From Leptonemataceae bacterium (GTDB lineage Bacteria; Spirochaetota; Leptospiria; Leptospirales; Leptonemataceae), in the NCBI GenBank assembly GCA_965227295.1, contig OZ245742.1, forward strand, positions 5,216,001 to 5,280,000: a stretch of 64,000 bases of DNA, in the 5' to 3' direction. Below are positions 4,899 through 52,888 of this stretch, in pieces. The translations under genes and the position numbers were made by a program. Below the pieces are notes generated by a model, which made no database searches, was not told the origin of the DNA, and saw nothing but the letters and a program-made list of their open reading frames with translations. Each line of letters opens with the position of its first letter. Within the stretch, counting starts at the first letter, position 1.

Positions 4899-5747
4899 TT
4901 GAGTGGGGCCGCTTACGGGCGCGCGCTTTTTTTGCTTTGCGGAGCGTGCGCCGCGCCTTACATCGGAATCATGTATCACGCCATCCTGGGATTTTTCGCC
5001 TGGCTCAGCCGCGGTACGCAGCACATACCCATCGGCCACGTGCCGTTGAACGTCGCCCTGTGGGTCTTCGGCTATCTCGTCGCGTCGATCTTTCTTCCGT
5101 TGGGATGTTACGTCCTCTTGCAGGTCGTGAACGGGAATACGGCACCGCTCTTCACGGACCCCGACTATCCGCCGATGAGTTATCTCGAAGCCGGACTGTG
5201 GCTCGGTGTCGGCGTCGTCGCGCTGGTCCCGGCCGTGTTCATGAGCATCAGTTCGTATCAACGGCATACGATCTTTCGCGCCTTCGGTGAAAACGAACGA
5301 CCGAAGCTGCAGCCCACGACGTCACGCCCGCCGGGGGATCCGGGCTTTACGTGTCGCGCCTCCGGCACCTTCGATGCGGACGGCCAGGAGCCGCGTTATT
5401 TCCATCACGTTCCGGTGGAAACCGGCATCACCGAGGACACGGGTTACCTGGTATTTTATCTGCAAACCGACGAGCGCCCGGCGTTCTTCGGACTCAGCGC
5501 GGGCAACGAACACCTGGCGAACCTCACGCGCATGGCCACGGTGATTCCGGAGTCCGTCTTCAGTCTGTACTACGGCACGCAGTATCTCGGCTTCACCACC
5601 GCACCGGCCCTGCGTTTTCAGTATCGGTACATTATCGACGAGCAATCCGGCAAGACCCGGGACTTTACGTTGATTGCGGCCTTCGGCAGCGAGTACGATC
5701 GGGCGAATTACATCGCCTGGCTCCAGGAACTCAAGATCATCGGATAG
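4899..5747 (+). CDS. Hypothetical membrane protein
   Basis: 282-aa ORF with three N-terminal hydrophobic segments and a soluble C-terminal domain. Confidence 0.65.
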   Translation: MSGAAYGRALFLLCGACAAPYIGIMYHAILGFFAWLSRGTQHIPIGHVPLNVALWVFGYLVASIFLPLGCYVLLQVVNGNTAPLFTDPDYPPMSYLEAGLWLGVGVVALVPAVFMSISSYQRHTIFRAFGENERPKLQPTTSRPPGDPGFTCRASGTFDADGQEPRYFHHVPVETGITEDTGYLVFYLQTDERPAFFGLSAGNEHLANLTRMATVIPESVFSLYYGTQYLGFTTAPALRFQYRYIIDEQSGKTRDFTLIAAFGSEYDRANYIAWLQELKIIG

Positions 5748-5760
5748 TCGTGGTTCATGC

Positions 5761-6954
5761 ACGCCCCGAATCGTGGTGTAAGTTAAGGTCAGTTTGGATT
5801 AACACTCTTATGGGTACAACTGGTTCCAGCTGACGAACGGAGGTTGTGCCGGGGAATGTGGCAAGGCGGACCGGAACGGCGTCTTCTTCGTCGGAGACGC
5901 TGCGTTAGCTGATTCGCACAACCAGCGTCCGGGTCGAATGCAGCATTCTTGGCAAAACGACATACCACAACTCCCGCTTCGCTGTAGCCATAAAAACCCC
6001 TTTCCAATTCCGCGACTTACTTCATATTTCTCGCGGCAATCGTAACGAACCACGGCTCTTGAACTACCGGAAACGCGCGAGTAGTTCGCGGACGCCCCGA
6101 ATCGTGGTGTAAGTTAAGGTCAGTTTGGGTTAACACTCTTATGGGTACAACTGGTTCCAGCTGACGAACGGAGGCCATGCCGGGGAATGTGGTAAGGCGG
6201 ACCGGAACGGCGTCTTCGTCGTCGGATAAGCTGCGTTAGCTGAGTCGCAAACCGACGTCCGGGTCGAATGCAGCATTCTTGGCAAAACGACATACCACAA
6301 CTCCCGCTTCGCTGTAGCCATAAAAACCCCTTTCCAATTCCGCGACTTACTTCATATTTCTCGCGGCAATCGTAACGAACCACGGCTCTTGAACTACCGG
6401 AAACGCGCGAGTAGTTCGCGGACGCCCCGAATCGTGGTGTAAGTTAAGGTCAGTTTGGATTAACACTCTTATGGGTACAACTGGTTCCAGCTGACGCGCG
6501 GAGGTTGTGCCGGGGAATGTGGTAAGGCGGACCGGAACGGCGTCTTCGTCGTCGGATAAGCTGCGTTAGCTGAGTCGCAAACCGACGTCCGGGTCGAATG
6601 CAGCATTCTTGGCAAAACGACATACCACAACTCCCGCTTCGCTGTAGCCATAAAAACCCCTTTCCAATTCCGCGACTTACTTCATGTTTCTCGCGGCAAA
6701 CGCAACGAACCCGGCTCTTGAACTACCGGAAACGCGCGAGTAGTTCGCGGACGCCCCGAATCGTGAGTAAGTGGCGGCCAGTGTACATTAAGCCTTTTAT
6801 GGGTACGGCTGGTTTCAGCTGACGCGCGGAGGTTGTGCCGGGGAACGTGGAAAGCATAAGTCCCCGGCGTCTTCTTCGTAAAGATCCATCCAGCGAACCC
6901 GCGCCCCGGAGCCCGGCTCTATTCGCGGGGCGGAGCGGGTGCGGGTTCGCGACC
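5761..6954 (-). repeat. Tandem array 1 of the ~330-bp unit (about 3.4 units) plus terminal cap
   Basis: ACGCCCCGAATCGTG recurs at 5761, 6092, 6422 and 6751 (periods 331, 330, 329). Cap at about 6878-6954. The strand is arbitrary (element orientation). Confidence 0.95.
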
Positions 6955-8303
6955 TATAAAAACCTTCGCAAATCCTGACGTAGAGTATCAAAGCTCTGCC
7001 ACGCCGATCGACGCACGTTGCGTAACCAGCAGCAACGCACGCCTTCGATCCAGCCAAAAAACGCGCGGCGGTAATGCCTCGCGAAGATGCCGGAAAAAGG
7101 ATACGTCACCGCGTAGACAATCGCTTCGAACGGACCGGCGAGGACTGCGACGGCACCGGCGGCTGCGATCCAGTAGACTGGAATCAGAAACATGCCGCCC
7201 ACGAGTTTCAGGGCGCCGTGAAAATGCACGTCCCGAAAGAGCCGACGCGAGAGCAGGCGCAGACTCATCGCCACCGGATAAAAGTTAACGAGCCCCAGCA
7301 ATTGCACGGGAGCGAGGAGCATTAGCGCCAGGCCGTCGAGCAGCAACGTCGGCAAACCCGCCCGCCGTTCCAGGGCCGCTTCCCCTATGAACCAGGCGTT
7401 GCGACGCACGACATACTCCCGCACCCGATCGCAGAATTCCGTCGTGCGCTTCGGACGTTCCCGGTACTCTTGTTCCAGGCGACGCACCAGGCTCTGGTTT
7501 GCCGCGAACTCGGCGGAGTAGTCTCGCAGGGCTTCGCGGCGCAACCGGGATCGCTGCATTTCCCACAGGCTCACCGCGGCATCGTGCACGGCGTCCTCTT
7601 CGATGTGCAGGACGATCTTGCGCAGACGCTCTTCCAGATCGCGACGCAGTTCGTTCACAGCCGCCTTAGCATTCTTTCGATAGCGCTTACGGTACTCGCT
7701 GACATCGATGTGCGGCCCGTATTGAATCAACAACTCCGCATCGAAGCGAGTCGGATGATCGTACGACAAACCCACCGGCACGATGCGCACGCCGGCCTCG
7801 CCCCGGTCTTCGAAGCTCTGTTCCGCCTGCAGGGCGATGCGCGCGGCACCCTTCTTTAACGGACGCAGACGACGGCGCATGCTGTGATTGCCCTCGGGAA
7901 AAATCAACACCGCGTCGCCGCGCCCCAGGATCCCGGCACACAGATCGAAGGTCATCTCGTTGAATGCAAGCTTCTCGGCGCCGTCCCGGGTGCGAAAGAT
8001 CGGCAACATCTTGATGCTGTGAAAGAACTTGCGCAGCAGCGGTTTGCGAAAGACGTCCGCCCTGGCCAGGAAGGTGATCTGCTGCGGCGGAGTGACGGCA
8101 GGAACAAGGGCGTCGCTCAGGGCGTTGGAATGATTCGGCGTAAACAGGAGCGGACCGGAGGTCGGCAGCGGCTCGTGATAGCGGATTTCAATGCGCCGAA
8201 AGAAAAAGTAAACGGCCAGGCGCACCCACGTACCAAAGAACTCGTACGTAAAAGACCGGTGCGGAATAGAGGGACGATGCGGCGCCGCCGGTTCGTCCGG
8301 CAT
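6954..8303 (-). CDS. 1-acyl-sn-glycerol-3-phosphate acyltransferase family protein
   Basis: NHSNALSD (HxxxxD), FLAR and IFPEG motifs, with C-terminal TM helices. Confidence 0.85.
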   Translation of the reverse strand: MPDEPAAPHRPSIPHRSFTYEFFGTWVRLAVYFFFRRIEIRYHEPLPTSGPLLFTPNHSNALSDALVPAVTPPQQITFLARADVFRKPLLRKFFHSIKMLPIFRTRDGAEKLAFNEMTFDLCAGILGRGDAVLIFPEGNHSMRRRLRPLKKGAARIALQAEQSFEDRGEAGVRIVPVGLSYDHPTRFDAELLIQYGPHIDVSEYRKRYRKNAKAAVNELRRDLEERLRKIVLHIEEDAVHDAAVSLWEMQRSRLRREALRDYSAEFAANQSLVRRLEQEYRERPKRTTEFCDRVREYVVRRNAWFIGEAALERRAGLPTLLLDGLALMLLAPVQLLGLVNFYPVAMSLRLLSRRLFRDVHFHGALKLVGGMFLIPVYWIAAAGAVAVLAGPFEAIVYAVTYPFSGIFARHYRRAFFGWIEGVRCCWLRNVRRSAWQSFDTLRQDLRRFL

Positions 8304-9358: not shown

Positions 9359-9483
9359 TTTGGGCGTGCCCCTCCGCGCTACGCGCTCCGGGTCGCGCTT
9401 TCCAGGGCTCCGCTTCGCTGCGGTCCTACGCGCTACGCGCTCCGGACTTGCGGCTGCGCCGCAACCCTTCCAATCGCTCACGC
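9359..9483 (-). repeat. REP-like palindromic dispersed repeat, family R1 copy A
   Basis: The reverse complement matches 21544-21719 and 52754-52888: GCGTnAGnGAT...AGTCCGGAGCGCGwAGCGCG.AGGACCG.AGCGA..GCGGAGCCC...ACGCCCAAA. Confidence 0.8.
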
Positions 9484-9553
9484 GAAGAGTCGAGGACAAT
9501 CATATCAAACCAGCCCATCAAAAAACCTCTCATCCTCCCTGTAAAATCTTCCC

Positions 9554-9579
9554 TCGGTACCTCGGTCCTCGGAGTGAAA
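9554..9579 (+). repeat. Short REP-like motif, family R2 (CCTCGGTCCTCGGAGT core)
   Basis: The core recurs at 15825-15840(-), 15935-15950(+), 17929-17944(-) and 18083-18098(+). Confidence 0.8.
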
Positions 9580-9585
9580 CCTTCT

Positions 9586-11355
9586 TCACCCCGCCGCGGC
9601 CACAGGACCGGCGGCCGGGATCGGGGCGCGCTTCAGTTTACCGCGGTTGCCGTTCAGGATCGCCTCGCTGTCCACGTTGTACTCGAAAGCCAGCTGCAAA
9701 CGAGCGTCTTTCTCTTCGCCGCTTAACTTATGCGCGCTGCGTTCTAAGAGTATGCCGATCAACAACCGCGTCGCCGATTCCACGACCTCGAACGAGAGCT
9801 GCGCTTTGCGATCGGCATCCGGAAGTTCCTTATACAGCGTGACGACCTCCTCGAAGGTCGCGCGCAGTTCATTCAGCAGCTCCGAGGCCGGGAACTCCGC
9901 AAAACGCGCGTTGAAGTAATCGCGCAGATTGCCCTTCGCGGACATCCCCGAAACGATGCCGCCGATGGCCGCGTTCACCTGGATCTGCGTGGTGCCGTCG
10001 TAGATGTTGGTAATGCGCACGTCCCGATACAGCCGCGCGAGATCGTACTCTTCGATGAAACCGGCGCCGCCCAGAACCTGCAGCGCGTCATAAATGACCG
10101 AGTTCGCCGTCTCGGCGATGTAGTACTTCTGCATGGGCGTCAGCGCGTTGGCGAGTTTCTCCCACTGACGAACCCCCGGATCGTTCTTGATCTCACGCTC
10201 GCTCGCGCCGCTTTCTTTAAGGCGAATGGCGCGCCAGTGATAACGATCCACGCTCAGCGACGCCTCGACCATGAGACAACGCATGCCCGCGATTTCACGT
10301 TCCATGCGCCGCAGCATCTTCGCCACGGCCGGAATCTCGATGATGGGCCGGCCGAACTGAATGCGTTCTTCGGCGTACTTGCGCGCCTCGTAGTAGGCCG
10401 CCGTGGCCATGCCCGTTCCCTGGGAACCCACGCTCAGTCGCGCACCGTTCAGCATGCCGATGACGTACTTCGAAAGACCGTGTCCTTCTTCTCCAATGAG
10501 CTGCGCCGGCGCTTTTTCGTAGGCCACCTCACAGGTGGCCGATGCCTTCAGACCGAGTTTCTTTTCAATGCCGGTGATCTCGATGTCCTTGCCTTCTACT
10601 AAAAAGAACGAGAGCCCCCGCGCCCCGCTGTTCGCGTCTCCCGTGCGCGCGAGCACCAACGAAGCGCCCGGAAATTCGTTCACCCCGCAGGCCATGGTCT
10701 GGTAACGTTTGGTGCCGGTGATGTACCACTTGCCGTCGATCTTCTCGGCTTTCGTGCGTACGCTCGGGAGATCCGAACCGAAGTCCGGCTCGCTCAGGCC
10801 CATCGTAACACTGTACTTGTTCTCAATGAGCTTCGGCAGCCACTCCTTGTTCATTTCCTCGCTCGCGTACATCTCCATGATGGCCGCCAGGTTTACACTG
10901 CCCGCGGCGATGGCGAAGGACGTATCCGCGCGGTAGGCGACCTCAAAGGCCAGGGCCTTCACGACGTGGGGCGTCCCCAGGCCCGCGTACTTGCGCTGAA
11001 AGGCCAGGGGATGCAGGCCGGCCTCCTGGATCTTTACGAAAAGATCCACGAACGGCTGCGGATGGCTAACTTTACCATTTTCGAACTTAAGGCCTTCGCT
11101 GTCCATGTCCTGGGCGATTTGAGAGACCTCTTTGCCCATGAGATCGCCGTAGCCTGCGAGGATTTGTTTGTAGTACTCCACGGCTTCTTCCACGGAACGC
11201 GGGGCGTAGGCCAGGCGCTCATCGCCGGTTTCGTCGTAGGCCTGCGCGTCGCGAAAGCCGTCCTCGTAGAGTTCAACCACCTCGTTCCAGTCGATGAACG
11301 TATCGACGTGGTTGCGGAGGTCCGGGTTGTCTTCGTAATAATTGCTGCTGATCAT
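9586..11355 (-). CDS. Acyl-CoA dehydrogenase
   Basis: MGLSEPDFGSD, IEKKLGLKASATCE, ERIQFGRPI, QVLGGAG and RITNIYDGT. Confidence 0.92.
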   Translation of the reverse strand: MISSNYYEDNPDLRNHVDTFIDWNEVVELYEDGFRDAQAYDETGDERLAYAPRSVEEAVEYYKQILAGYGDLMGKEVSQIAQDMDSEGLKFENGKVSHPQPFVDLFVKIQEAGLHPLAFQRKYAGLGTPHVVKALAFEVAYRADTSFAIAAGSVNLAAIMEMYASEEMNKEWLPKLIENKYSVTMGLSEPDFGSDLPSVRTKAEKIDGKWYITGTKRYQTMACGVNEFPGASLVLARTGDANSGARGLSFFLVEGKDIEITGIEKKLGLKASATCEVAYEKAPAQLIGEEGHGLSKYVIGMLNGARLSVGSQGTGMATAAYYEARKYAEERIQFGRPIIEIPAVAKMLRRMEREIAGMRCLMVEASLSVDRYHWRAIRLKESGASEREIKNDPGVRQWEKLANALTPMQKYYIAETANSVIYDALQVLGGAGFIEEYDLARLYRDVRITNIYDGTTQIQVNAAIGGIVSGMSAKGNLRDYFNARFAEFPASELLNELRATFEEVVTLYKELPDADRKAQLSFEVVESATRLLIGILLERSAHKLSGEEKDARLQLAFEYNVDSEAILNGNRGKLKRAPIPAAGPVAAAG

Positions 11356-15820: not shown

Positions 15821-15950
15821 TTTCACTCCGCGGACCGAGGTACCGAAGCAAGAAAAGACGCGAAGCCCGATAAAAGAGCCGTTCACAGCCCGACAACGCT
15901 CATCGTACGCAACCCCTCCCCGAAAACCCCGGCCCCTCGGTCCTCGGAGT
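15821..15950. repeat. Inverted pair of R2 motifs (REPIN-like)
   Basis: ACTCCGCGGACCGAGG at 15825-15840 and CCTCGGTCCTCGGAGT at 15935-15950. Confidence 0.7.
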
Positions 15951-15955
15951 AGAAT

Positions 15956-16816
15956 TTATTCCAACGTTATGTCCAATAACTCGCCTCGTTCTTCGAAAAC
16001 CGACGGCAACTCCGGCATGTCTTCGTCGGTCCAGAGCCAGCCGCCGAGGACGTTGACGATGGGGGCCGACGTGCCCGCGAGTGCGAACTTTACGCCGTTC
16101 ACAATGTCTGCCGGCTCCGTGGGCCGAAAGGGGCTGTCCGCGACGTGGCGATAGCTGTCCTCTTCGAATCGATAGTTTTTCTGATAAAAATAATCCAGAA
16201 ATGATTTTTGATCCGAGGCCTTCCACTCCTCGTACATGCGAACCATCTCCGGATACTTCCCGCGCATGGCGTTCCGCTGTACGAGGAGTGCGATGCCGCG
16301 CACGCTGTTGCTCGGGAACATGCCGAAGCGAACGGCCTTGAGTTTGTCTTTGCGCGCGATGGTCAGTCTTTCGGTGGCGATCTTAATAAACGACATGGCA
16401 CCGTAGACCACCAGCAACGGCTGCATGGTAATGAATCCGCTGAACCAGAGCGTGAGTTGCGGATCGAGTAAATCCATCATGCGCAGCATGGGCCGCACGC
16501 AGTAATCGGCCGCGGCCTCGACCTGTTCGCGGGTGGCGAGGCGCGCCGGCAGACCCACCTCGCCCCGGGCCGGAATGTAGATCAGCGCTTCGACCGCCGC
16601 GTCACCGGCAACGGCCTTCACGCCGTCGCGCAATTTCTCCGGTGCCGCCGCATCGTCGAGATCGATGCCCGGCACGGTATGATCCGCGCCTTTGGTCTCA
16701 CGCTCCCCCGACGTCGTACTGATGATGCGCGCCTTCGCTTCGATTTCCCGAATCGCTTGGATGGAACACTGCCCCGAGTAACTGCTGCCGCTGACGATCA
16801 CATAGGTCTTTGCCAT
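15956..16816 (-). CDS. Hypothetical protein with SDR/Rossmann-like N-terminus
   Basis: MAKTYVIVSGSSYSG and YGAMSFIK (YxxxxxxK, as in enoyl-reductase-like SDRs). Confidence 0.6.
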   Translation of the reverse strand: MAKTYVIVSGSSYSGQCSIQAIREIEAKARIISTTSGERETKGADHTVPGIDLDDAAAPEKLRDGVKAVAGDAAVEALIYIPARGEVGLPARLATREQVEAAADYCVRPMLRMMDLLDPQLTLWFSGFITMQPLLVVYGAMSFIKIATERLTIARKDKLKAVRFGMFPSNSVRGIALLVQRNAMRGKYPEMVRMYEEWKASDQKSFLDYFYQKNYRFEEDSYRHVADSPFRPTEPADIVNGVKFALAGTSAPIVNVLGGWLWTDEDMPELPSVFEERGELLDITLE

Positions 16817-16945: not shown

Positions 16946-17923
16946 ATGATCCGCCGCATCGTACTGACACTGCTCATCATCGTACTCATCCTCGGGATCC
17001 CCTACTACGCCTGCAACGGCGAACGGCGGCCCATGGACGCGGCGGCCCGGGTCGCGGCCCCGGGTAAATTCGCGACGTTGAGCGGCGGGCTAACGCATTA
17101 CCAGGACTCCGCGGATCACGATCAGGGACGGCCCGTGGGCGCGGCCGACACCGGCGAAACCGTGATCCTGGTCCACGGCTTCTCCATGCCCATGTTTATG
17201 TGGGAGGATCTCTACAAACAGTTAGTGAACGCAGGTTACCGGGTGGTCCGCTACGATCTCTACGGTCGCGGTTACTCGGATCGGCCGGACGTCGAGTACA
17301 ACCCGCAATTGTTTCAGACGCAACTGCACGACCTACGTCGACACCTGGGCCTCGGGCGCGTGCACCTGGCCGGCATATCCATGGGCGGGGCCATTGTAAC
17401 CCACTACGCGGCGCAGGACTTGAAACGCCCGGCGCAGGAACGCATCGTACAATCGCTCACGCTCATGGCGCCGTTCAGTTATCCGCTGGAACTCCCGCTC
17501 ACGGCCCGATTGCTTGAGGTCCCCTACGTCGGCCACTATGTCATGACGGTGCTCGGTGACCGCAGCCTCAAGGGACGTCTGGCCGCCAACGTCGCGCACC
17601 CGGAAGATCATCGCGATATCCTCGCGTTGTACCAAGATCAAATGCAGTTCTTCGGATTCAAACGCGCGCTGCGTTCCACGACTCTGCACATGATCGGTCA
17701 CGATGTGATTCCGTACTACGAGGCGGTGGGCCAGAGCGATTTGCCGGTGTTGTTGATCTGGGGCGAGGAGGACCAGGTGGTCCCGTTCGCCATGTCGGAA
17801 AAGTTGAGGCGTGTGCTGCCGAACGCGGAGTTTCAGGCGCTGGAGGACACGGGCCACCTGCCGCCGGTGGAACGGCCCCGGGCATGCGCGCGGTGGATGC
17901 GCGAGTTTCTGCGGGGGGAGTAG
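16946..17923 (+). CDS. Alpha/beta hydrolase
   Basis: LVHGFS, YDLYGRGYS, GISMGG nucleophile, WGEEDQVV and TGHL, with an N-terminal anchor. Confidence 0.9.
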   Translation: MIRRIVLTLLIIVLILGIPYYACNGERRPMDAAARVAAPGKFATLSGGLTHYQDSADHDQGRPVGAADTGETVILVHGFSMPMFMWEDLYKQLVNAGYRVVRYDLYGRGYSDRPDVEYNPQLFQTQLHDLRRHLGLGRVHLAGISMGGAIVTHYAAQDLKRPAQERIVQSLTLMAPFSYPLELPLTARLLEVPYVGHYVMTVLGDRSLKGRLAANVAHPEDHRDILALYQDQMQFFGFKRALRSTTLHMIGHDVIPYYEAVGQSDLPVLLIWGEEDQVVPFAMSEKLRRVLPNAEFQALEDTGHLPPVERPRACARWMREFLRGE

Positions 17924-17924
17924 G

Positions 17925-18102
17925 TTTGACTCCGAGGACCGAGGGGCCGAGGGGAAGATGGGAGGGTTATCGTAGTGTGCATGCGTGCAGGCTAAGAATG
18001 TTCTTTGAGAATGTTAGTCCACAGCATTCATAGCCGCACCGCCTTCACCCCCGCGGTCTGCCTCTCCGAAAAAACCTCGTTTCCTCGGTCCTCGGAGTCA
18101 AA
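17925..18102. repeat. Perfect 20-bp inverted pair of R2 motifs (REPIN/MITE-like) between convergent genes
   Basis: TTTGACTCCGAGGACCGAGG (17925-17944) and CCTCGGTCCTCGGAGTCAAA (18083-18102). Confidence 0.8.
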
Positions 18103-20435: not shown

Positions 20436-20656
20436 CCCCTGATGAAAACCGCAAACGATTATAAAAGGGATATTGAAGCGCAGGTTCGTCCGGAAGACGA
20501 ACTTCGCAATCAAGTATCCCAACCGGAATATACAAGCGGCCACCCACAAAACGCCGCCTCGCAAATCTCTGGGAATTCGGCTGTGCGCAATTAGCAGGCT
20601 GCTGAAAAAGTCGAAATCTCCTGGCGATTTCGCGGTGCCTGTTCAGATTTTGTCGC

Positions 20657-21516
20657 ATGCGCGGCGAAGAGGAAAAGCAACCGAGTATCTGGAGTCACGT
20701 TTCGATGGAGGACCGGATTCCGGCAAACCATCCGTTGCGTGACATTCGCAAGCTGACGGATGCGGTCCTCGCGAAACTGAGCGATCGATTCGATGAAATG
20801 TATCCGGCCTTCGGTCGCCCATCGATTCCGCCAGAGTATCTATTACGCGCTGTGTTGCTGCAAGTACTGTTCAGCGTCCGCAGCGAACGTCAGTTGATGG
20901 AGCAAACGAACTACAATCTGCTGTATCGTAGGTTCATCGGATTGAGCGCCGACGATCCGGTCCGGGATGCGAGCGTCTTTTCAAAGAATCGTGATCGCCT
21001 GATGGAAGGCGGTATCGCCGACGAATTCTTTCGCGGCTTGCTGGAAGTGGCGGATGATCGCGGGCTGATGAGCGACGAACATTTCACAGTGGATGCCACT
21101 TTGCTGGCGGCTGCGGCGAGCTGTGCGCGACCGGAACGGCGGAACGCGATGCGGCAGCCATCTTCATGAAGGAACTACGCCGAAGCAATCATCGGCCCCG
21201 CGTCACTCTGGGCGCCGACAAAGGCTACGATGCTAAAACATTCGTAGAAGAACTTAAAGCGATCCGAATCGTGCCGCATATCGCACAGAAGAGCCGGTCC
21301 AGTGCCGTCGATTATCGAACCGCCCGCAGCCCCGCCTATGCCGTAAGTCAATGTCGACGCAAAGCCGTCGAAGAAATTTTTGGCTGGCTGAAGTCGGTCG
21401 GCCTGTGCAGGAAGATGCGCTTCCGCGGCCCGGATCCCGTTGGGTGGATCTTCCGCTTCGCTGTTGCCGTCTACAACTTGCTGCGAATCAGAAACCTGGA
21501 AGAGGGTACCGCATGA
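20657..21516 (+). pseudogene. IS5-family DDE transposase in two frames, central part missing
   Basis: N-part has GRPSIPPE, SERQLME and HFTVDAT. C-part has TLGADKGYD and RKAVEEIFGWLK. The break is at about 21120. Confidence 0.85.
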
Positions 21517-21543
21517 TCGCAAATGCTAACTTGCGAAATACAA

Positions 21544-21719
21544 GCGTTAGGGATGCGCAGGGGGCCGCGCAGCGGCAGTCCGGAGCGCGAAGCGCGGAGG
21601 ACCGAAGCGAACGCGGAGCCCGGAGCAGCCCGGCGCCCGGCCGGCTTCAGAGGGGAAGGAGCGAACAGCGGCCCCGTCCAGCGGGGCCTTGTTGGCGCCG
21701 GCCGGGCGCAACGCCCAAA
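21544..21719 (+). repeat. R1 REP-like repeat copy B, inside the IS 3' region
   Basis: Shares CAGTCCGGAGCGCGAAGCGCGGAGGACCGAAGCGA with copy C and ends in ACGCCCAAA. Confidence 0.85.
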
Positions 21720-22167
21720 TGAATTTCACAGATTCCGCTTTCGAATGACTTTTTCAGCAGCCTGTTAGTCCAGAACAAGGGCTTCGAAGAGTCTTTGATC
21801 CGGGGTTACCGAGAAGACTTCGCCGTAGAACTCGAGGTGGAACCGCTCACACCGATCAACGCATATCGCATAGAGGCCCAACACGGACGCATCATCCCAG
21901 GTATTATATTTATCGCAAGAGCTTCGGACTCGGAATGGGTCCCGGATGCAAAGAAAACGATGAAGCAGGCGTTCATGAAATGGCGGGTCTGGAAAGAGGC
22001 CGAATCAAGTTAATCCGGAGAGACTGCGAAGTTATTTTTCGAGATGATCCTTACTTTCCTTCATAGTTTTAAGCATACTCCAGTATCTTCACGATATCGA
22101 CGCGTCCTGGGTGAATTAGGGCGGCGGCGTAGTACAAAACGTACTATTGTAAACTCCGGAGCCGCCT

Positions 22168-32817: not shown

Positions 32818-32845
32818 TTGACCCGGTTTTCCGGCGTGTTATAAT
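32818..32845 (+). promoter_or_regulatory. Sigma70-type promoter TTGACC-N16-TATAAT with extended -10 TG
   Basis: TTGACC at 32818-23, TG at 32837-38 and TATAAT at 32840-45, 10 nt before ATG 32856. Confidence 0.65.
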
Positions 32846-32855
32846 ACCGTTCGTA

Positions 32856-33416
32856 ATGTCGGCTCCGGATTTAAGGAATCAAACGCAAGCTCCGTCTCAT
32901 GACGGTCGACCGGCCACGGTCACGGAATATTTAGAACTGCCGGACGACGGCCGACGCTACGAACTCATCCAGGGAGTGTTGCGTTTGAGCCCCAGTCCTT
33001 TTCGTCCCCACGGCACCGTCGCCGGACGATTCTTCCGCGTTCTGGATACATATCTGGACGAACATCCCGTCGGCACGGCGGGTATGGAATGTGACGTCAT
33101 ACTCGAAACGGGTGATGTCCTCCGGCCGGATGTTCATTTTGCTTCCGGCCCGCCCATTCGCGGTCACATTCGCCGCGTGCCGGAGTTGGTTGCGGAAGTC
33201 CTGTCCGCATCGACTGCCGAACGGGATCGTGAACTCAAAGGCCGCATCTATCTCCATGCCGGAGTCCGCGAGTTCTGGCTCATAGATCCCGACAAACATA
33301 CACTCGAAGTACGTTACCACGACGAGGGGACCTGGCAGGTGAACCGCGGTGACGAACTGGAATCCCGTGTCCTGCCCGGATTAGTGGTTACGGTCCGGCA
33401 ACTGTTCAAAGAGTGA
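32856..33416 (+). CDS. Uma2-family PD-(D/E)xK endonuclease
   Basis: RYELIQG..SPSP..H, RPDV, PELVAEVLS..T..RD..K..Y..AGVREFWLIDP. Confidence 0.9.
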   Translation: MSAPDLRNQTQAPSHDGRPATVTEYLELPDDGRRYELIQGVLRLSPSPFRPHGTVAGRFFRVLDTYLDEHPVGTAGMECDVILETGDVLRPDVHFASGPPIRGHIRRVPELVAEVLSASTAERDRELKGRIYLHAGVREFWLIDPDKHTLEVRYHDEGTWQVNRGDELESRVLPGLVVTVRQLFKE

Positions 33417-33459
33417 TACGCAAATCCCGGGTCTACGCCCGCGCATCCACTAACACGCG

Positions 33460-34737
33460 CTACTTCTTCGTCGCGTGGGGGATGTACGTCATCACGGCGG
33501 TGTCGCGGCCCTTCACCGTCAGCGGTTCGCGCTTTTCGAACTCGAAGCCGTCCACGTCTTTCGCGGCCTGGTAGGTGTTCTCGTCGACCAGGACCGTATC
33601 GGCGTGCACCATAAGGCGGGCGGCCAGGTTCACGTTCGTCCCGTGCATGGTGTACTCGCAGCGAACCTCGTTGCCCACCGTACCGCAGAATGCGCGCCCC
33701 GTGGCCACACCGACGGCGGCGTCGTGACCGGAAGCGGCCAGGGCCTGGCGCAGATCCAGCGCCGCGCGAATGCCGCGCACCGGATCATCCTCGTGGACCA
33801 ACGGCGGCAGACCGAAGGCGGCGAGCAGGATCGTGCCTTTCTCGTCCACGCCCAGGCGATTGATGCTGCCCTCGTAACGGTAAATGCATTCCTGCATCAC
33901 GAGCATAATGATCTGCACGACCTGAACCGGAAGGTCCGCGGTGAACTGAAGATTGCGAACTTTGCAAAAGAGCGCGGTGATGGGTCGAAGCTCCCCGCTG
34001 CTGTCCTCGAGGTCACCGACCAGCACGGCCCGCGGAATGTACACGTTGAAGGCCGTGCGCGCGGGTTCGGGAATTTCAATGCGTGACAGTGTCGGCCGAT
34101 CCTCCGGCGGGAGCGGTTGCATGCGGAACTTCTGCGCTGATTGTTTCTCGCCCAGACCGGCATTCTGCAACGAACGCCAGGCCTGCGGAGCGATCATCAC
34201 CTGACCCGGTTCCGCCAGCGTGCCGCCGTGACCGGCCTGGCCCATGGGACTGCCGGCGAAGACGTACTCCCAGCGATCCAGGTATCCGCCGAGATGCAGC
34301 TCATAGAGCGTGCCCGCGCCGACGCCGACGCGCAGCGCCAGGGTTACGTCTTCGTCGATGGGATAATTGTGCAGTTGCTTCTGGATCGTGAGGCCGCAGG
34401 TGGCGGCCATGCGTATCGCGTGGGACAGGCCGGCCGTCGCCGCCGCCGGCCAGATCGCAAACACGGCGTCCCCGGCAAACTTCACGATGTCCCCGCCGCA
34501 CTCGGTGATGATGTTCACGAGCCGGCCGATGTAGATGTCGAGGTAACCGGTGAGTTTTTTGACGCCCTGGCGGGGGTCTTCCCCGGTCAGGCGCTCCGCC
34601 AGGAGCGTGAAGTTCTGCATGTCCGCGAACAGCACGGCCGCGTGGAAGCTGTTGGAAATCGGCTCCTCGGGCGGCTCCGGGTTGCGATCAAGGTAATGCA
34701 GCAATCGCTGGGAGACGTATTTGGTCAGATTCTCCAG
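33460..34737 (-). CDS. Soluble tandem-domain class III adenylyl cyclase (sAC-like)
   Basis: C1 has VLFADMQNFT and IVKFAGDA. C2 has VDEKG..LAAFGLPP and EYTMHGTNVNLAARLM. The frame is open up to CTG 34737 (LENLTKYVSQRL); the annotated TTG start is 34704. Confidence 0.88.
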   Translation of the reverse strand: MENLTKYVSQRLLHYLDRNPEPPEEPISNSFHAAVLFADMQNFTLLAERLTGEDPRQGVKKLTGYLDIYIGRLVNIITECGGDIVKFAGDAVFAIWPAAATAGLSHAIRMAATCGLTIQKQLHNYPIDEDVTLALRVGVGAGTLYELHLGGYLDRWEYVFAGSPMGQAGHGGTLAEPGQVMIAPQAWRSLQNAGLGEKQSAQKFRMQPLPPEDRPTLSRIEIPEPARTAFNVYIPRAVLVGDLEDSSGELRPITALFCKVRNLQFTADLPVQVVQIIMLVMQECIYRYEGSINRLGVDEKGTILLAAFGLPPLVHEDDPVRGIRAALDLRQALAASGHDAAVGVATGRAFCGTVGNEVRCEYTMHGTNVNLAARLMVHADTVLVDENTYQAAKDVDGFEFEKREPLTVKGRDTAVMTYIPHATKK

Positions 34738-40679: not shown

Positions 40680-41135
40680 TCAGTCCAGCGGCAGAGCCGT
40701 GCGAATGAGGCGTTCATAGCGCGCCGTGTTCCGGCCGAGACCTTTCAAATGATAAAAGTCCTGTAGAATCTGCCCCTGTTGTTCGTAGTGAAAATCGAGC
40801 AACTGCTCGTGTTCGTCCAGGCTGTACTCGTAGACCCGACCCCATCGGTACACGTGTTCGGCGCCGGCTTTGAGGAAGTGGTAGGCCTTCAGGTTCTGAA
40901 ACTGCCAGACGTGCATGATCTCGTGGACCAGCACGGCGGCGATTCTTACCGGGGCCGCCGCGAAGTCCTCACAGTACAGCCGCGGATTCCAGTAGACGGT
41001 GTCCTGTAACGTAACCGCGCCGGCGAGTGCGGCGATCAACGCGCTGCGCCTCATGCCGACGATTTCGTAGCGTACCTGATCCCCGTAGATGGGCCGCAGT
41101 AACTGTATTTCGCCGGTAGTTAGTGGTCGTTTCAT
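40680..41135 (-). CDS. Small HExxH zincin-like protein (DUF4157-like)
   Basis: RPLTTGE, LVHEIMHVWQ and EQQG. Confidence 0.75.
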   Translation of the reverse strand: MKRPLTTGEIQLLRPIYGDQVRYEIVGMRRSALIAALAGAVTLQDTVYWNPRLYCEDFAAAPVRIAAVLVHEIMHVWQFQNLKAYHFLKAGAEHVYRWGRVYEYSLDEHEQLLDFHYEQQGQILQDFYHLKGLGRNTARYERLIRTALPLD

Positions 41136-41710
41136 TGCACTTCGCGCAGTGCCCAGAATTCCTGCGGTTCCCCGGAGTCCGCCAGCAAACCGGGCACGGT
41201 CCCGTCACGCCCCGTGCAGTATGCCATGGTATACGTCACGGTTTTATCGATGTCCTTCGGCAGGCTGCGCGTACCACTGCAGTCCGTTGTGGTACCGTCA
41301 TCCAGGGCCATGGCGGGTTCCAGGAGGGACTCCTCGCGTACGAACTCTCGCAGGTCGAGGCGGACCCGCAGGCCGTCCACGACGAAGCTGCCGCTCTCGG
41401 TCTCCGTAAACTCCACGGCGCAGAGCCCGTCATCACCGCCGCCGCCGTGATCGAGAGACGTGAAAATCCGCCGCACCTCAGCGTCCCCAAACGTCACCAC
41501 GTGCTCATACTCAGAGTAAGTGATTCCGGTGCAACCCGCTCCGACCGAAAAGAGTCGATTCGTAAGATGAAACGGTTCACGTGCCGGAATGATTTCACCG
41601 TCCAGGTCATGAGCGGAATCCGGCCGATCTTCGACATCACGATTGTGACCCTCAACGCAGGCCGAAAGAACGTGAGTGAGTGCGATGATTGCGAACAGAA
41701 TTCGATGCAT
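41132..41710 (-). CDS. Hypothetical lipoprotein
   Basis: Lipobox LSAC. Overlaps the next gene by ATGA. Confidence 0.65.
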   Translation of the reverse strand: MHRILFAIIALTHVLSACVEGHNRDVEDRPDSAHDLDGEIIPAREPFHLTNRLFSVGAGCTGITYSEYEHVVTFGDAEVRRIFTSLDHGGGGDDGLCAVEFTETESGSFVVDGLRVRLDLREFVREESLLEPAMALDDGTTTDCSGTRSLPKDIDKTVTYTMAYCTGRDGTVPGLLADSGEPQEFWALREVQ

Positions 41711-47915: not shown

Positions 47916-48017
47916 ATTGCAGAGTATCGGCAGATTTACGGAACGTCAACGTAAATCGCATGCCGCTGCCCGTGCGAATTTATACGAGGAGTCTACTAAT
48001 TTCGCATGAACCACGGA

Positions 48018-49398
48018 AGCTGAGTCACAAATCAGCGTCCGGGTCGAACGCAGCATTCTTAACAAAACGAAAATCCACAACTCCTGCGAGCCGTAGCCAA
48101 AAAGGCCCTTCACCATTGCATAACTTACCTTCTGTGTCTCACGGCAAACGCCGCGAGCTACAGCTCTTGAACTACCGGAAACTTTTCAAACGTTCGAACA
48201 CGCCCCCGAATCGTCGTGTAAGTAGCGGCCAATGTAAATTAAGCCTTTTATGGTCACGGCTGGTTCCAGCAGATGAACGGAGGTTATGCCGGGGAATGTG
48301 GTAAGGCGCACCGGAACGGCGTCTTCTTCGTAAGAAACGCTGCGATATCCGAACCGCACAACCAGCGTCCGGGTCGAGGCGGACAATCTTAACAAAACGA
48401 ATCACCACAACTCCCGCTCAGCTGTAGCCAAATCAAACCCTTAACCATTGCGCAACTTACTTTCTGTGTCTCACGGCAAACGCCGCGAGCTACAGCTCTT
48501 GAACTACCGGAAACTTTTCAAACGTTCGAACACGCCCCCGAATCGTGGTGTAAGTAGCGGCCAATGTAAATTAAGCCTTTTATGGTCACGGCTGGTTCCA
48601 GCAGATGAACGGAGGTTATGCCGGGGAATGTGGTAAGGCGCACCGGAACGGCGTCTTCTTCGTAAGAAACGCTGCGATATCCGAACCGCACAACCGACGT
48701 CCGGGTCGAGGCGGACAATCTTAACAAAACGAATCACCACAACTCCCGCTCAGCTGCAGCCAAATCAAACCCTTAACCATTGCGCAACTTACTTTCTGTG
48801 TCTTACGGCAAACGCCGCGAACCAAAGCTCCTGGACTACCGGGAGCTTTTTAGCATTCGAACACGCCCCGAATCGTGGTGTAAGTGGCGGCCAACGTAAA
48901 TTAAGCCTTTCATGGGCACGGCTGGTTCCAGCTGACGCGCGGAGTTTATGCCGGGGAATGTGGTAAGGCGCACCGGAACGGCGTCTTCTTCGTAAGAAAC
49001 GCTGCGATATCCGAACCGCACAACCGACGTCCGGGTCGAGGCGGACAATCTTAACAAAACGAATCACCACAACTCCCGCTCAGCTGTAGCCAAAAAATCC
49101 CCTTCACTATACTGCAACTTACTCCATGTTTCTCACGACGGCGGTAGCGAACTACAGCTCTTGAACTACCAGAAATGTATCGGTTGTTCGCGGACGCCCC
49201 GGATCGTGGAGTAAGTGGCGGCGAGTGTACATTAGCCTTCTTTGGGCACGGCTGGTTCCAGCTGACGAACGGAGGTCATGCCGGGGAATGTGGTACGGCG
49301 CACCGGAACGGCGTCTTCGCCGTAAAGATCCATTCAGCGAATCCGCGCCACGGAGCCCCGCTCTATTCGCGCGGCGGAATGGTGGCGTGTTCGCGACC
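48018..49398 (-). repeat. Tandem array 2 of the ~330-bp unit (4 units) plus terminal cap
   Basis: CGTCCGGGTCGA recurs at about 48036, 48366, 48698 and 49028. The cap 49321-49398 matches 6878-6954. Confidence 0.95.
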
Positions 49399-50616
49399 GC
49401 GATCGCGCAGAAAATACGTAATCATCTCCCCCTTGCCCTTCACGGCGATCGGTTCCCGGGCCACGCTCGCGAACTCGTGTTGCACCAGGTCGCGCGTCCG
49501 CTGACTGACGGCAATCTCACCGGGCACGCCGTGGGATTCCATGCGACTCGCCGTGTTCACCGCGTCGCCCCAGAGATCGTAGCTGAACTTGCGCCGGCCG
49601 ATCACCCCGGCCACCACCGGCCCCGAATGCAAACCAATGCGAATGCGCAGATCATGCCTGCCCGCGGCGCGCCCGTGCTCCAGGAGACACTGCATTGCAA
49701 ATGCCATCTGAACGGCAGTTAGTGCGTGATTCTCTCGCGGCTCCGGCAGTCCGGCCACGGCCATGTAACAATCGCCGATGGTCTTGATCTTTTCCAGGCC
49801 GAAACGATCGGCCAGTTCGTCGAAGCCGGTGAAGATGTCGTTCAACATTTCGACGAGCTGCGCCGGAGCCGTTCGCCCGGCGAGAGCGGTGAAGCCGACG
49901 ATGTCGGCAAAGAGGACGGTGACCTCGTCGAGATGATCGGCGATGGGTTGTTCGCCCTGCTTCAGGCGCCCGGCGATGGACGCGGGCAATACGTTCAGCA
50001 ACAACTCCTCGGATCGCCGATGTTCGCGTTCGAGTCCGTCCTCGGCCTGGAAGTGGACGTTGCGCATGTAGCGCATGAGCAGGATCGCCCCCACCGACGC
50101 CAGGACTAAGTTCACCAGAACGCGTGTTTGTGTCACCGCCGGAGTCGCCGTCCATGGCAGCAGCGGCTTCAGTGCGAACACTTCAAAGGCTGCATAGGTA
50201 CCGATCAACAGTGCCGCCGCCGCCAGAGCCGCCGGCAGAATCAGGGACTTTTGCCGGCGCGAGAAGATGGCGAACGGCACGATCATTAAGAGCAGATAAT
50301 GGACCCAGGCGCCGGGAACCAGGCCGAAGGCGATTACGATCATGGTGAGCTGTACGTGTGCGGCTCCGAGAAACGCGATGCGTGCCGCCAGCGTCCGCCC
50401 GTGCTGGTGCAGTAAGTACAGACCGAGATACGCCAGGGCTCCGCAGTAGTTCATGATCACGGCGGCCCAGGCACCGCGCAGGATGCCCATGCTTCCGGCA
50501 ACGACCGAAATGATCAGAGCCGTCAGGATGGCGATACGCGTGAGGGCCCGGGCTTTTTGTTCGTCCCGGGGAAGTGATTCAGCGATCATCGTTGCCACTC
50601 CGATCTTGCCAGCCAA
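49363..50616 (-). CDS. Membrane class III adenylate cyclase
   Basis: About 6 TM, VLFADIVGFT, KIKTIGDCYM, YDLWGDAVNTASRME and VKGKG. Start is uncertain. Confidence 0.92.
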   Translation of the reverse strand: MAGKIGVATMIAESLPRDEQKARALTRIAILTALIISVVAGSMGILRGAWAAVIMNYCGALAYLGLYLLHQHGRTLAARIAFLGAAHVQLTMIVIAFGLVPGAWVHYLLLMIVPFAIFSRRQKSLILPAALAAAALLIGTYAAFEVFALKPLLPWTATPAVTQTRVLVNLVLASVGAILLMRYMRNVHFQAEDGLEREHRRSEELLLNVLPASIAGRLKQGEQPIADHLDEVTVLFADIVGFTALAGRTAPAQLVEMLNDIFTGFDELADRFGLEKIKTIGDCYMAVAGLPEPRENHALTAVQMAFAMQCLLEHGRAAGRHDLRIRIGLHSGPVVAGVIGRRKFSYDLWGDAVNTASRMESHGVPGEIAVSQRTRDLVQHEFASVAREPIAVKGKGEMITYFLRDRGREHATIPPRE

Positions 50617-51692: not shown

Positions 51693-51758
51693 GGGTGGCC
51701 TCGATTGGAAGCCGCACACTGAGTGATTTGCCCCGGATATCAAGCGGGAAATTCCGGA

Positions 51759-51950: not shown

Positions 51951-51982
51951 AAAGATAACCCGCGTTCGGAAACGGTTCTCTC

Positions 51983-52292
51983 GACGAAGACGCCGTTCCG
52001 GTGCGCCTTACCACGATCCCGTCATGACCTCCGTCCATCTGCTGGAACCAGCCGTACCCAAATTCTTCTTAACATACACTCACCGTCACTTACTTCACCA
52101 TGCGGGTGCGCACATGAACGAACTGAGCGTTTCCGGGATGCAAGCGTCGCGGTTCGTCAGGTTTGCCGGAAAAAACACGGGATGCGTCGTGCGACTGTGG
52201 CGGTTTTTTTGCTACGGCTCTTCGGAGTTGTGGTTTTTCGTTTTGCCAAGAGAGTCCGCATCGACCCGGACGCGGGTATGGACTGAATCAGC
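51983..52292 (+). repeat. Solitary diverged copy of the ~330-bp unit, inverted relative to the arrays
   Basis: GAAGACGCCGTTCCGGTGCGCCTTACCAC, GCTGGAACCAGCCGT, GGAGTTGTGG..TTCGTTTTG and TCGACCCGGACG match the reverse complement of the array units. Confidence 0.9.
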
Positions 52293-52359
52293 GAGCGGTG
52301 TTCTCGCTCTGCGAGACAGGAGATCGGCAGAAGAAAGCCTTCGGCTTTCTCTATAGTAT

Positions 52360-52390
52360 GAGCACTTTCACGCCTGGCGTGAAAGTGCTC
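52360..52390. terminator. 15-bp perfect hairpin downstream of the tRNA-Asn 3' duplication
   Basis: GAGCACTTTCACGCC-T-GGCGTGAAAGTGCTC. There is no clear U-tract, so a terminator role is uncertain. Confidence 0.45.
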
Positions 52391-52409
52391 CCCCGGTAGG
52401 ACTCGAACC
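52386..52409 (-). repeat. 24-bp exact duplication of the tRNA-Asn 3' end
   Basis: TGCTCCCCCGGTAGGACTCGAACC is identical to 52525-52548. Confidence 0.9.
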
Positions 52410-52526
52410 CACAATTGTCGCTTCGGCGGCAATTGTGAACCGCCGCCATCGCGACCCATAGGGAGCGATGGCCCTATGTGAGAGTCCTGCCGTCCCACAG
52501 GGAGGAATAGAATATGACGAACACTG

Positions 52527-52753: not shown

Positions 52754-52888
52754 GCGTCAGCGATACGGAGGGTGGCGCGCAGCGCCAGTCCGGAGCGCGA
52801 AGCGCGGAGGACCGAAGCGATAGCGGAGCCCGGAGTAGCGCGGTCCCGGCCGCCGCATCCGCAACGCGGCGGCCGGGAGACGCCCAAA
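52754..52888 (+). repeat. R1 REP-like repeat copy C
   Basis: GCGTCAGCGAT...CAGTCCGGAGCGCGAAGCGCGGAGGACCGAAGCGATAGCGGAGCCCGGAG...ACGCCCAAA. Confidence 0.85.

What the first reader, a model, noticed from the sequence alone, without database searches (positions are those of the whole stretch)
5761..6954. Family of ~330-bp non-coding tandem-array elements at three loci (array 1; also 48018-49398 and 51983-52292)
Seen: at least 8 copies of a ~330-bp unit. Array 1 has about 3.4 units (periods 331, 330, 329), array 2 has 4 units (periods about 330-332), and one diverged inverted solitary copy lies near tRNA-Asn. Unit lengths vary by 1-2 nt and copies carry indels, so no reading frame is kept. Conserved blocks (CTGGTTCCAGC, GGGGAATGTGG.AAGGCG.ACCGGAACGGCGTCTTC, CGTCCGGGTCGA, CAAAACGA...CCACAACTCC, GCTCTTGAACTACC) alternate with variable ones. 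The solitary copy starts at the cap junction (GAAGACGCC) and ends where array 2 ends (..TCAGC), which defines natural unit boundaries. All loci are intergenic and no transposase or RT is adjacent. Inference: this is an abundant non-autonomous element or an arrayed structured ncRNA that I do not recognise. Three loci in 64 kb suggests many copies genome-wide.
Basis: partly seen in the sequence, partly recalled or inferred. Interest (0 to 1): 0.85.

Follow-up and report, generated by a model that had tools for sequence, protein, structure and literature searches.

The report
Self-shuffling two-half intergenic repeat arrays
The 330-base units are two related halves in alternating directions that fill about 112 gaps behind genes in one bacterium and have their short sequence blocks shuffled almost freely between copies, likely by DNA recombination, which makes them an unusually large, hairpin-free relative of known bacterial mosaic repeats rather than RNA genes.

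Summary
Both arrays and the solo copy are real, and short-read contigs from one study cover their flanks and unique parts. The family has 112 loci (73.8 kb, 1.2% of the genome).

The unit is two ~150-nt halves, X (minus strand) and Y (plus strand). Their heads are inverted homologues (98 of 127 score above 5 bits; 0 of 127 in six controls), so arrays alternate in orientation as BIME-2 does. Arrays end at either half-junction, mostly behind stop codons; 56 of 112 lie in convergent gaps.

Variable blocks are freely shuffled: linkage is nearly gone beyond ~10-20 nt, and neighbouring units are only 83% identical (median). The unit shows no conserved fold, Rfam match, coding signal or target duplication; only optional insert hairpins covary. 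Two sister species carry only solo copies of X's boxed core.

No Y1/RAYT, Y2 or DUF559 gene was found here. The spreading enzyme and the function remain inferred. This scan reported the family earlier from other windows of this genome.

The parts
5749..5886 (+). Array 1, leading Y half (head then tail), starting 2 nt behind the stop codon of ORF 4899-5747
   Evidence: HMM positions 190-327; sequence
5890..6217 (+). Array 1, unit 1: X half (~5890-6060, read on minus) plus Y half (~6075-6217)
   Evidence: 97% identical to unit 2
6221..6547 (+). Array 1, unit 2 (X plus Y)
6551..6874 (+). Array 1, unit 3. Its Y half switches allele set near 6767 and ends in the tail of the optional P2 hairpin insert
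   Evidence: 88% and 92% identical to units 1 and 2
6878..6952 (.). P1 cap: GC-rich palindromic hairpin found at Y-tail junctions, ending just before the stop codon of convergent ORF 6954-8303
   Evidence: DNA fold z -2.96; 41 of 42 genome copies lie at arrays; compensatory arm variants
48012..49318 (+). Array 2: four X+Y units (48012-48326, 48330-48658, 48662-48988, 48992-49318), pairwise 77-93% identical
49322..49398 (.). P1 cap of array 2. It contains the stop codon (49363-49365, minus strand) of the adenylate/guanylate cyclase ORF
   Evidence: (D10)
51972..52297 (-). Diverged solo unit (68-72% identical to the others), between ORF 50586-51743 and the tRNA genes
4899..5747 (+). Left flanking ORF of array 1 (282 aa, no Pfam family at E 0.001); its stop codon abuts the Y head
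6954..8303 (-). Right flanking ORF of array 1 (acyltransferase), convergent

Best explanation
This is a non-coding, BIME-like mosaic repeat made of two homologous ~150-nt halves in alternating orientation, which likely grows and shuffles by DNA recombination between its own copies. Shown: the two-half architecture; placement behind gene 3' ends; ragged ends without target duplication; free reassortment of short allele blocks; no conserved fold except in optional insert hairpins; and an older solo core in sister species. Inferred: an ancestral half-element (still solo in the sisters) was duplicated head-to-head into the 330-bp unit. Inferred: units pop out of arrays as small circles and pop into other copies or older solos by crossing over in the invariant boxes, with short-tract gene conversion on top; this gives tandem arrays of unlike neighbours and near-whole-number lengths. 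Inferred: new sites were seeded at gene ends by an enzyme that is no longer present or not yet recognised, and kept where they spare promoters. Inferred: the boxes persist because a host or element protein binds them.
For: Architecture. A Y-head HMM scores reverse-complemented X heads at mean 8.5 bits (98 of 127 above 5 bits) against 0 of 127 in six controls. The profile-profile score is 32.4 against a null of 18.3+-3.5, maximum 29.7 of 60. Natural hybrids join a Y head directly to an X tail: 2 clear cases, plus 5 with a Y-type box and an unclassified head. Solo halves exist, and array lengths cluster at whole and half units; 36 of 87 long arrays lie within -30 to +20 nt of a whole unit against 23.5 expected, p=0.0013. 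Mosaicism. With one unit from each of 71 loci, r2 falls from 0.40 (up to 5 nt) to 0.16 (6-10), 0.07 (11-20) and 0.02 (over 80); four-gamete violations occur in 93-99% of site pairs beyond 5 nt. All 15 of 15 pairs among six allele blocks are unassociated, p>0.1. Median identity is 83% within arrays and 79% between loci; only 5 of 95 within-array pairs reach 95%. Placement. 56 of 112 loci are in convergent gaps and 6 in divergent gaps, against about 16% and 17% of array-free gaps (my own gene caller). Heads face a gene 3' end in 85 of 108 cases and tails in 47 of 76, p=0.019. In 12 of 36 sense-preceded Y heads the stop codon sits 23-25 nt before the GTAAGT box, where the element has stop-codon alleles. 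Sisters. The boxed core occurs 18 times in G001 and 29 times in G002 and in 0 of the 138 other order genomes searched. In 4 orthologous locus pairs the boxes align while the flanks diverge.
Against: No circle, strain polymorphism or empty orthologous site was observed, so pop-out and pop-in are inferred. The acyltransferase flanking array 1 has no close orthologue in the sisters. MutS and MutL are present in all three genomes and should restrain exchange between copies about 20% divergent; shuffling at a 10-20 nt scale is finer than RecA's usual homology need (recalled). No seeding enzyme was found. Unlike REPs, the halves are not hairpins, and the GTAG tag is in only 17 of 127 Y heads. X-Y similarity by plain pairwise alignment is weak (39 against a null of 28+-5, maximum 50.5), and the tails show none. 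The box conservation in sisters is biased because copies were found with a model of those boxes. In the sisters, X does not keep a fixed orientation to neighbouring genes.
Confidence: 0.55

Rival explanations
1. Reverse-transcriptase-driven repeat. Read-through transcripts of the unit would be copied by a group II intron RT that switches templates often, giving mosaic, ragged concatemers that integrate behind genes.
For: G000 has 10 RT matches and the two sisters have none, and the arrays are expanded only in G000. Ragged ends, no target duplication and fine mosaicism fit template switching.
Against: The correlation rests on three genomes, one of them fragmented. The unit has no likeness to intron or IS ends: 16 elements tested, best score 20.8 against a null maximum of 22.3. 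It has no fold. Both half-junctions serve as ends, so there is no fixed 3' end. The intron copies are near-identical while the units are about 79% alike. The solo core exists in sisters where no RT was found.
Confidence: 0.12
2. Orphaned REP/BIME-type single-strand transposon. A now-lost HUH (RAYT-like) or Ssn-like nuclease would have cut, amplified and inserted the doublet on single-stranded DNA at replication forks.
For: Alternating inverted halves match the BIME-2 layout (PMC3333891 passages). CTAC is in 88 of 127 X heads and GTAG in 122 of 127 at the X junction box. The unit's plus strand lies on the leading strand in 69 of 112 loci (p=0.018) and 38 of 56 convergent loci (p=0.011), both uncorrected. 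No target duplication. The P1 and P2 hairpins covary.
Against: PF01797 matches 0 of 3 genus genomes and 1 of 42 family genomes, that one inside a 1198-aa frame. NF047646 does not match G000. The one small GIY-YIG gene has no array at its locus. No hairpin follows the GTAG tags. Array 1 duplicated recently (97%) without such an enzyme.
Confidence: 0.17
3. Host-selected chromosome element. The arrays would be multimers of a protein-binding cassette (nucleoid structuring, or an insulator between colliding transcription units), expanded because they are useful.
For: 153 of 327 columns are at least 93% conserved while 59 are below 70%. The boxes persist at orthologous sister loci. Convergent gaps are enriched threefold. 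Loci are spread evenly round the chromosome.
Against: Sites differ between species: none of the 7 sister copies with two-sided synteny has an array at the G000 site. The sisters manage with 18-29 solo cores. Arrays are disrupted by an IS481-like element, an IS3-end fragment and a 12.7-kb island. No binding protein was identified. This rival is compatible with the best explanation.
Confidence: 0.1
4. Arrayed structured or guide ncRNA, processed to ~150 or ~330 nt, with the variable blocks as guides.
For: Conserved boxes alternate with variable blocks; heads follow stop codons in the sense direction, so read-through transcription is likely.
Against: No covariation or fold. No Rfam match even at E 10. 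The variable blocks are few shared alleles, not unique spacers. Spacer-to-flank matching in 30 sister copies is 7.57 against a null of 7.37-7.50. No orientation bias in co-directional gaps, 23 against 27. No promoter-like site in array 1.
Confidence: 0.05
5. Decayed protein-coding repeat or silent cassettes for a variable gene.
For: The modal period is 110 codons; two frames have few stops (1.9 and 2.4 per unit); the core translates into a protein-looking string in one frame.
Against: dN/dS-like ratios are 0.62-0.97 in G000 and 0.87-1.28 in the sisters. Indels of 1-2 nt are common. A 138-aa array ORF finds only 2 proteins, both on a contig of this genome's length, and no Pfam family. Only 1 of 112 arrays overlaps a called gene by more than 60 nt.
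Confidence: 0.01

Closest known systems
BIME-2 / atypical BIMEs and REP doublets (E. coli, Stenotrophomonas, Xanthomonas; PMC3333891 and PMC2817692, passages read)
   Same: Two homologous units in alternating orientation, repeated head-to-tail; extragenic; high copy, about 1% of the genome; no target duplication; GTAG/CTAC at some junctions.
   Different: The halves are ~150 nt and unstructured rather than 20-40-nt hairpins. No RAYT was found in the genus. Tandem neighbours are unlike (median 83%), whereas the paper says BIME copies at one locus are well conserved. Allele blocks reassort across loci.
Neisserial intergenic mosaic elements (dRS3 plus RS; PMC1797815, passages)
   Same: Dynamic non-coding arrays of conserved boxes and variable segments. 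They host opportunistic IS insertions and serve as a target for a mobile element's recombinase (here a 12.7-kb island in one box).
   Different: NIMEs have one 20-bp inverted repeat flanking over 100 unrelated RS families of variable length. Here the order of about 15 different boxes and the 330-bp period are fixed.
Non-coding satellite families of Leptospira interrogans (PMC6749651, passages)
   Same: Dispersed intergenic tandem arrays without a known transposition mechanism, probably in the same order (the order is inferred, not tested).
   Different: Their listed units are 37-69 nt, against 330 nt here. My models found no match in the 99 genomes of the second family searched.
CGTC-tagged repeats and Ssn-associated motifs (PMC3733652; PMC11893778; passages)
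   Same: Repeats downstream of genes; the CGTC families lack a dedicated transposase; the X core begins with CGTC.
   Different: Those are short hairpins, and Ssn genes are flanked by their motif. Neither holds here.

Membership tests
REP/BIME | Two homologous units in alternating orientation, tandemly repeated | tested here: met
   (heads homologous; tails not shown to be)
REP/BIME | High copy number, extragenic, downstream of genes | tested here: met
   112 loci, 106 of 112 behind at least one 3' end
REP/BIME | Each unit is a 20-40-nt imperfect palindrome (hairpin) | tested here: not met
   halves ~150 nt with no fold; only optional P1 and P2 inserts are hairpins
REP/BIME | GTAG tag at the foot of the hairpin | tested here: inconclusive
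   CTAC in 88 of 127 X heads, GTAG in 17 of 127 Y heads, no conserved hairpin behind them
REP/BIME | A RAYT (Y1 HUH) gene flanked by the repeat | tested here: not met
   G000 is 93.6% complete, and the gene can be lost
NIME | One short inverted repeat flanking many unrelated spacer families | tested here: not met
   fixed box order and alignable allele blocks
NIME | Arrays dynamic between strains | not testable with these tools
   only one study holds this species
MITE (DDE non-autonomous element) | Fixed termini with terminal inverted repeats | tested here: not met
   ragged starts and ends
MITE (DDE non-autonomous element) | Target-site duplication | tested here: not met
   mean longest shared word 4.80 against 4.65+-0.08 in shuffled pairings, 112 loci; duplications of 2-3 bp would be missed
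MITE (DDE non-autonomous element) | Ends shared with a resident IS | tested here: not met
   16 elements tested, none above the null maximum
Structured ncRNA / Rfam family | Covarying consensus structure or Rfam match | tested here: not met
Structured ncRNA / Rfam family | Discrete transcript | not testable with these tools
   no RNA holder listed
Guide arrays (CRISPR, TIGR, bridge RNA; features recalled) | Unique spacers matching targets, with an effector gene beside the array | tested here: not met
   only local flanks were tested as targets
Ssn-related motif | Small GIY-YIG gene flanked by the hairpin repeat | tested here: not met

The most novel reading that the evidence does not exclude
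The 330-bp unit is the chromosomal footprint of a hairpin-free, enzyme-less DNA quasi-species. It would circulate as minicircles (or RT-made cDNA), its ~15 invariant boxes would be read by an undescribed protein, and it would swap 10-20-nt cassettes between copies despite intact mismatch repair. That would be a new route of bacterial short-tract recombination and repeat spread, distinct from RAYT-REP, DDE-MITE and guide-RNA systems.
Probability: 0.15. Interest if true: 0.82.

Novelty: new variant of a known kind. Interest (0 to 1): 0.48.

Why it matters
How bacterial mosaic and satellite repeats spread without a dedicated transposase is an open question; both the CGTC-repeat paper and the prokaryote-satellite paper leave it open. 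This family has about 200 copies of each half and dozens of polymorphic sites, with linkage lost within ~20 nt. It is therefore a natural read-out of intragenomic short-tract recombination. Sister species keep the ancestral solo form, so the step from solo motif to tandem mosaic can be traced. The arrays also appear to supply stop codons to genes, and they act as landing sites for IS elements and an integrase island. The function itself is unproven, and the family is limited to one genus among the genomes searched.

Tried and rejected
Rfam at gathering score on the window and at E 10 on array 1: only tRNA.

Mutual-information and RNAalifold analysis of 127 units and 30 cores: no structure. A hammerhead-like word in Y was considered (motif recalled) and dropped because common alleles break it.

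Coding origin: rejected.

Enzyme searches in G000: Y1 none, RAYT none, DUF559 none. The Y2 search was uninformative because no control rang. One IS110 gene, not at an array. Two GIY-YIG genes, neither at an array. Clustering of 266 array-adjacent ORFs gave only spurious array ORFs and signalling or housekeeping families, judged from sequence. Genes between 15 close array pairs showed no cognate enzyme (read by eye, not scanned).

Loss of mismatch repair as the cause of mosaicism: rejected.

The island integrase as the shuffler: linkage is equally low across the whole X tail and the Y tail, with no dip specific to its target box, and only 3 array ends fall near that phase.

Pattern scans. Metagenomes gave 1 hit, inside a coding gene. 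Viral contigs gave 0. The Y-head pattern matched 0 times in either sister.

Empty-site comparison failed for array 1; the array 2 region is not syntenic in the sisters. No RNA holder was listed. Joints in short-read contigs cannot tell circles from other arrays.

Literature searches listed no description of this family. The library lacks most subscription papers, and no supplement was read; the family tables in the supplements of PMC3733652 and PMC6749651 may bear on that claim.

Full report
Observation. The arrays are as described: 5761-6854 (period 330, 3.3 copies) and 48036-49325 (period 332, 3.9 copies), with an inverted solo at 51986-52297. Array 1 lies between convergent ORFs, starts 2 nt behind one stop codon, and its cap ends just before the other. 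Short-read contigs of two runs from one study cover the flanks and unit-specific pieces of all three loci at about single-copy depth, so an assembly artefact is unlikely. No piece spans a whole array, and the runs may be the assembly's source. The host is a single 5.94-Mb contig with 59.8% GC. 'Leptospirales' is my inference from gene content and earlier scan notes, not a test.

Genome-wide extent. An iterated profile gives 301 hits, 132 of them near full length. After dropping clusters under 40 bits and merging, 112 loci remain, 73.8 kb or 1.2% of the genome, with 189 X halves and 208 Y halves. They are spread evenly. Fainter solo fragments, many right behind stop codons, lie below that cut. 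By my own dicodon gene caller, 56 of 112 loci are in convergent gaps, 50 in co-directional gaps (23 against 27 for the two orientations) and 6 in divergent gaps; array-free gaps are about 16% convergent and 17% divergent.

Anatomy. The unit is two halves. X (model 1 to ~170) and Y (~185-327) each occur alone, and array lengths cluster at whole and half units; 36 of 87 long arrays are within -30 to +20 nt of a whole number against 23.5 expected, p=0.0013. The heads of X (minus strand) and Y (plus strand) are homologous. A Y-head HMM scores 98 of 127 reverse-complemented X heads above 5 bits and 0 of 127 in six controls. The profile alignment scores 32.4 against 18.3+-3.5. A plain consensus alignment is only weakly above its null. 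Two loci join a Y head straight to an X tail at the shared junction box, and five more carry a Y-type box before an X tail. Arrays therefore alternate in orientation. Heads face a gene's 3' end in 85 of 108 cases and tails in 47 of 76. In 12 of 36 sense-preceded Y heads the stop codon falls where the element has stop-codon alleles. Both show compensatory variants. Ends are ragged and show no excess of target duplication.

Not an RNA gene, not a coding relic. Rfam gives nothing. The top 60 covarying pairs among 127 units are local haplotype pairs or non-complementary. Folding z averages +0.28 and -0.35 for 19 of 132 units sampled. Thirty cores from three species yield 3 pairs with no double change. 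Substitution ratios are near neutral in all frames, and an array ORF has no outside homologue. Expression could not be examined.

Mosaicism is the distinctive feature. About half the columns (153 of 327) are at least 93% conserved; between them sit blocks with two to five multi-base alleles. With one unit from each of 71 loci, r2 drops from 0.40 within 5 nt to 0.07 at 11-20 nt and 0.02 beyond 80 nt (0.014 expected by chance), and all 15 pairs among six blocks are unassociated. Neighbours in an array are barely closer than units elsewhere (median 83% against 79%; 5 of 95 pairs reach 95%). Array 1, at 88-97%, is one of the few recent local duplications. MutS and MutL are present.

Relatives. A ~65-nt four-box core of X occurs 18 times in G001 and 29 times in G002, mostly solo, with one outward-facing doublet in each. 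It was not found in the 138 other order genomes searched, and the full-unit model found nothing in 39 other family genomes. No sister hit covers Y. Sites mostly differ from G000: 0 of 7 two-sided syntenic sites carry an array, while the doublet site and one other match on one side lie near G000 arrays. In 4 orthologous G001-G002 pairs the boxes align while spacers and flanks diverge, with the caveat that copies were found through those boxes. Some G000 alleles recur in the sisters, so part of the diversity predates the expansion.

Enzymes. No Y1, RAYT or DUF559 match was found in G000, and Y1 matches 1 of 42 family genomes; the Y2 search had no working control. Ten RT matches occur in G000 and none in the sisters, but no element end resembles the unit. 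G000 has two extra tyrosine recombinases. One heads a 12.7-kb island that splits an array in register at an invariant X box, with an 11-bp direct repeat and inverted arms around a 6-bp core. Its paralogue split a different repeat family. These islands use the repeats as targets; nothing shows they made them. A modest strand bias exists: plus strand on the leading strand in 69 of 112 loci, and 38 of 56 in convergent gaps, both uncorrected.

Mechanism. Shown: architecture, placement, mosaicism, lack of fold, and the ancestral solo core. Inferred (0.55): a head-to-head doublet of the ancestral half expanded, and its copies now exchange by excision and re-integration of unit circles plus short-tract conversion, with an unidentified seeding enzyme and box-binding protein. 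Rivals: orphaned single-strand nuclease system (0.17), RT template switching (0.12), host-selected binding arrays (0.10), ncRNA array (0.05), coding relic (0.01).

Comparison. It works like a BIME-2 or NIME array but fails membership of both: no REP hairpin, no RAYT, unlike neighbours, and no single inverted repeat between unrelated spacers. I read passages only of PMC3333891, PMC2817692, PMC1797815, PMC3733652, PMC6749651 and PMC11893778, and no supplements. Six library searches listed no account of this family. Earlier scan notes from other windows of this genome reached a similar filing. In the few lines shown I saw no mention of the inverted homology of the halves or of the sister-species core. 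Verdict: real, a new variant of a known kind, interest 0.48.

Noticed in passing
L204:1207-13931 (G000 2989206-3001930): 12.7-kb island with a rare tyrosine integrase (347 aa), a 257-aa partner gene, an HTH gene and a 1843-aa protein with a pretoxin-HINT domain, integrated into an invariant box of this repeat; one close homologue of the integrase (50% identical) elsewhere.
   Followed up: partly
G000 4208440-4226261 (right part in L205): Paralogous integrase island of about 17.8 kb that splits a copy of the other, hairpin-rich repeat family at a 7-bp core with inverted arms. Two related islands each target a different high-copy repeat.
   Followed up: partly
window 21544-21633, 52754-52843, 9414-9491: Second repeat family (about 90-120 nt, GC-rich); 57 matches to one 21-nt motif genome-wide, none at the 330-bp arrays. 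Earlier notes call it Flavo-1-like.
   Followed up: partly
window 9547-9591, 15821-15962, 17913-18102: Third short repeat family; 259 matches to a 16-nt motif genome-wide, none at the arrays.
   Followed up: no
window 20588-21769: Multi-copy IS (IS5-like by my reading, not scanned) with a broken transposase frame and a copy of the second repeat family inside its right end.
   Followed up: no
window 52387-52465: ARAGORN calls a tRNA-Val(CAC) next to tRNA-Asn, but Rfam finds only tRNA-Asn. It shares its 3' part with tRNA-Asn and may be a duplicated or decayed tRNA end.
   Followed up: no
L020:4231-5805: Retron-like RT (338 aa) followed by a trypsin-like protease ORF; not near an array.
   Followed up: partly
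G000 32821-33507, 40883-41494, 2021332-2021955, 4099046-4099660 and copies: Nine RT matches in four types that look like group II introns (one type confirmed by Pfam), several in near-identical copies; none found in the two sister genomes.
   Followed up: partly
G000 1034816-1035970 and 5159374-5159946: An IS481-like element inserted into one array and a short IS3-end fragment inside another.
   Followed up: partly
L206 (G000 5671755-5672953): A solo Y half lies just upstream of an xerC-like recombinase gene, and another array lies about 1.4 kb from an xerD-like gene; probably chance.
   Followed up: no
L119, L121, L152, L155: In the sister species other small palindromes are inserted at one fixed point inside the third box of the X core, next to where the G000 island integrated.
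   Followed up: no
window 43646-44747: 174-bp coding repeats (WD40-like PD40) inside the 983-aa ORF 43599-46550; ordinary.
   Followed up: no
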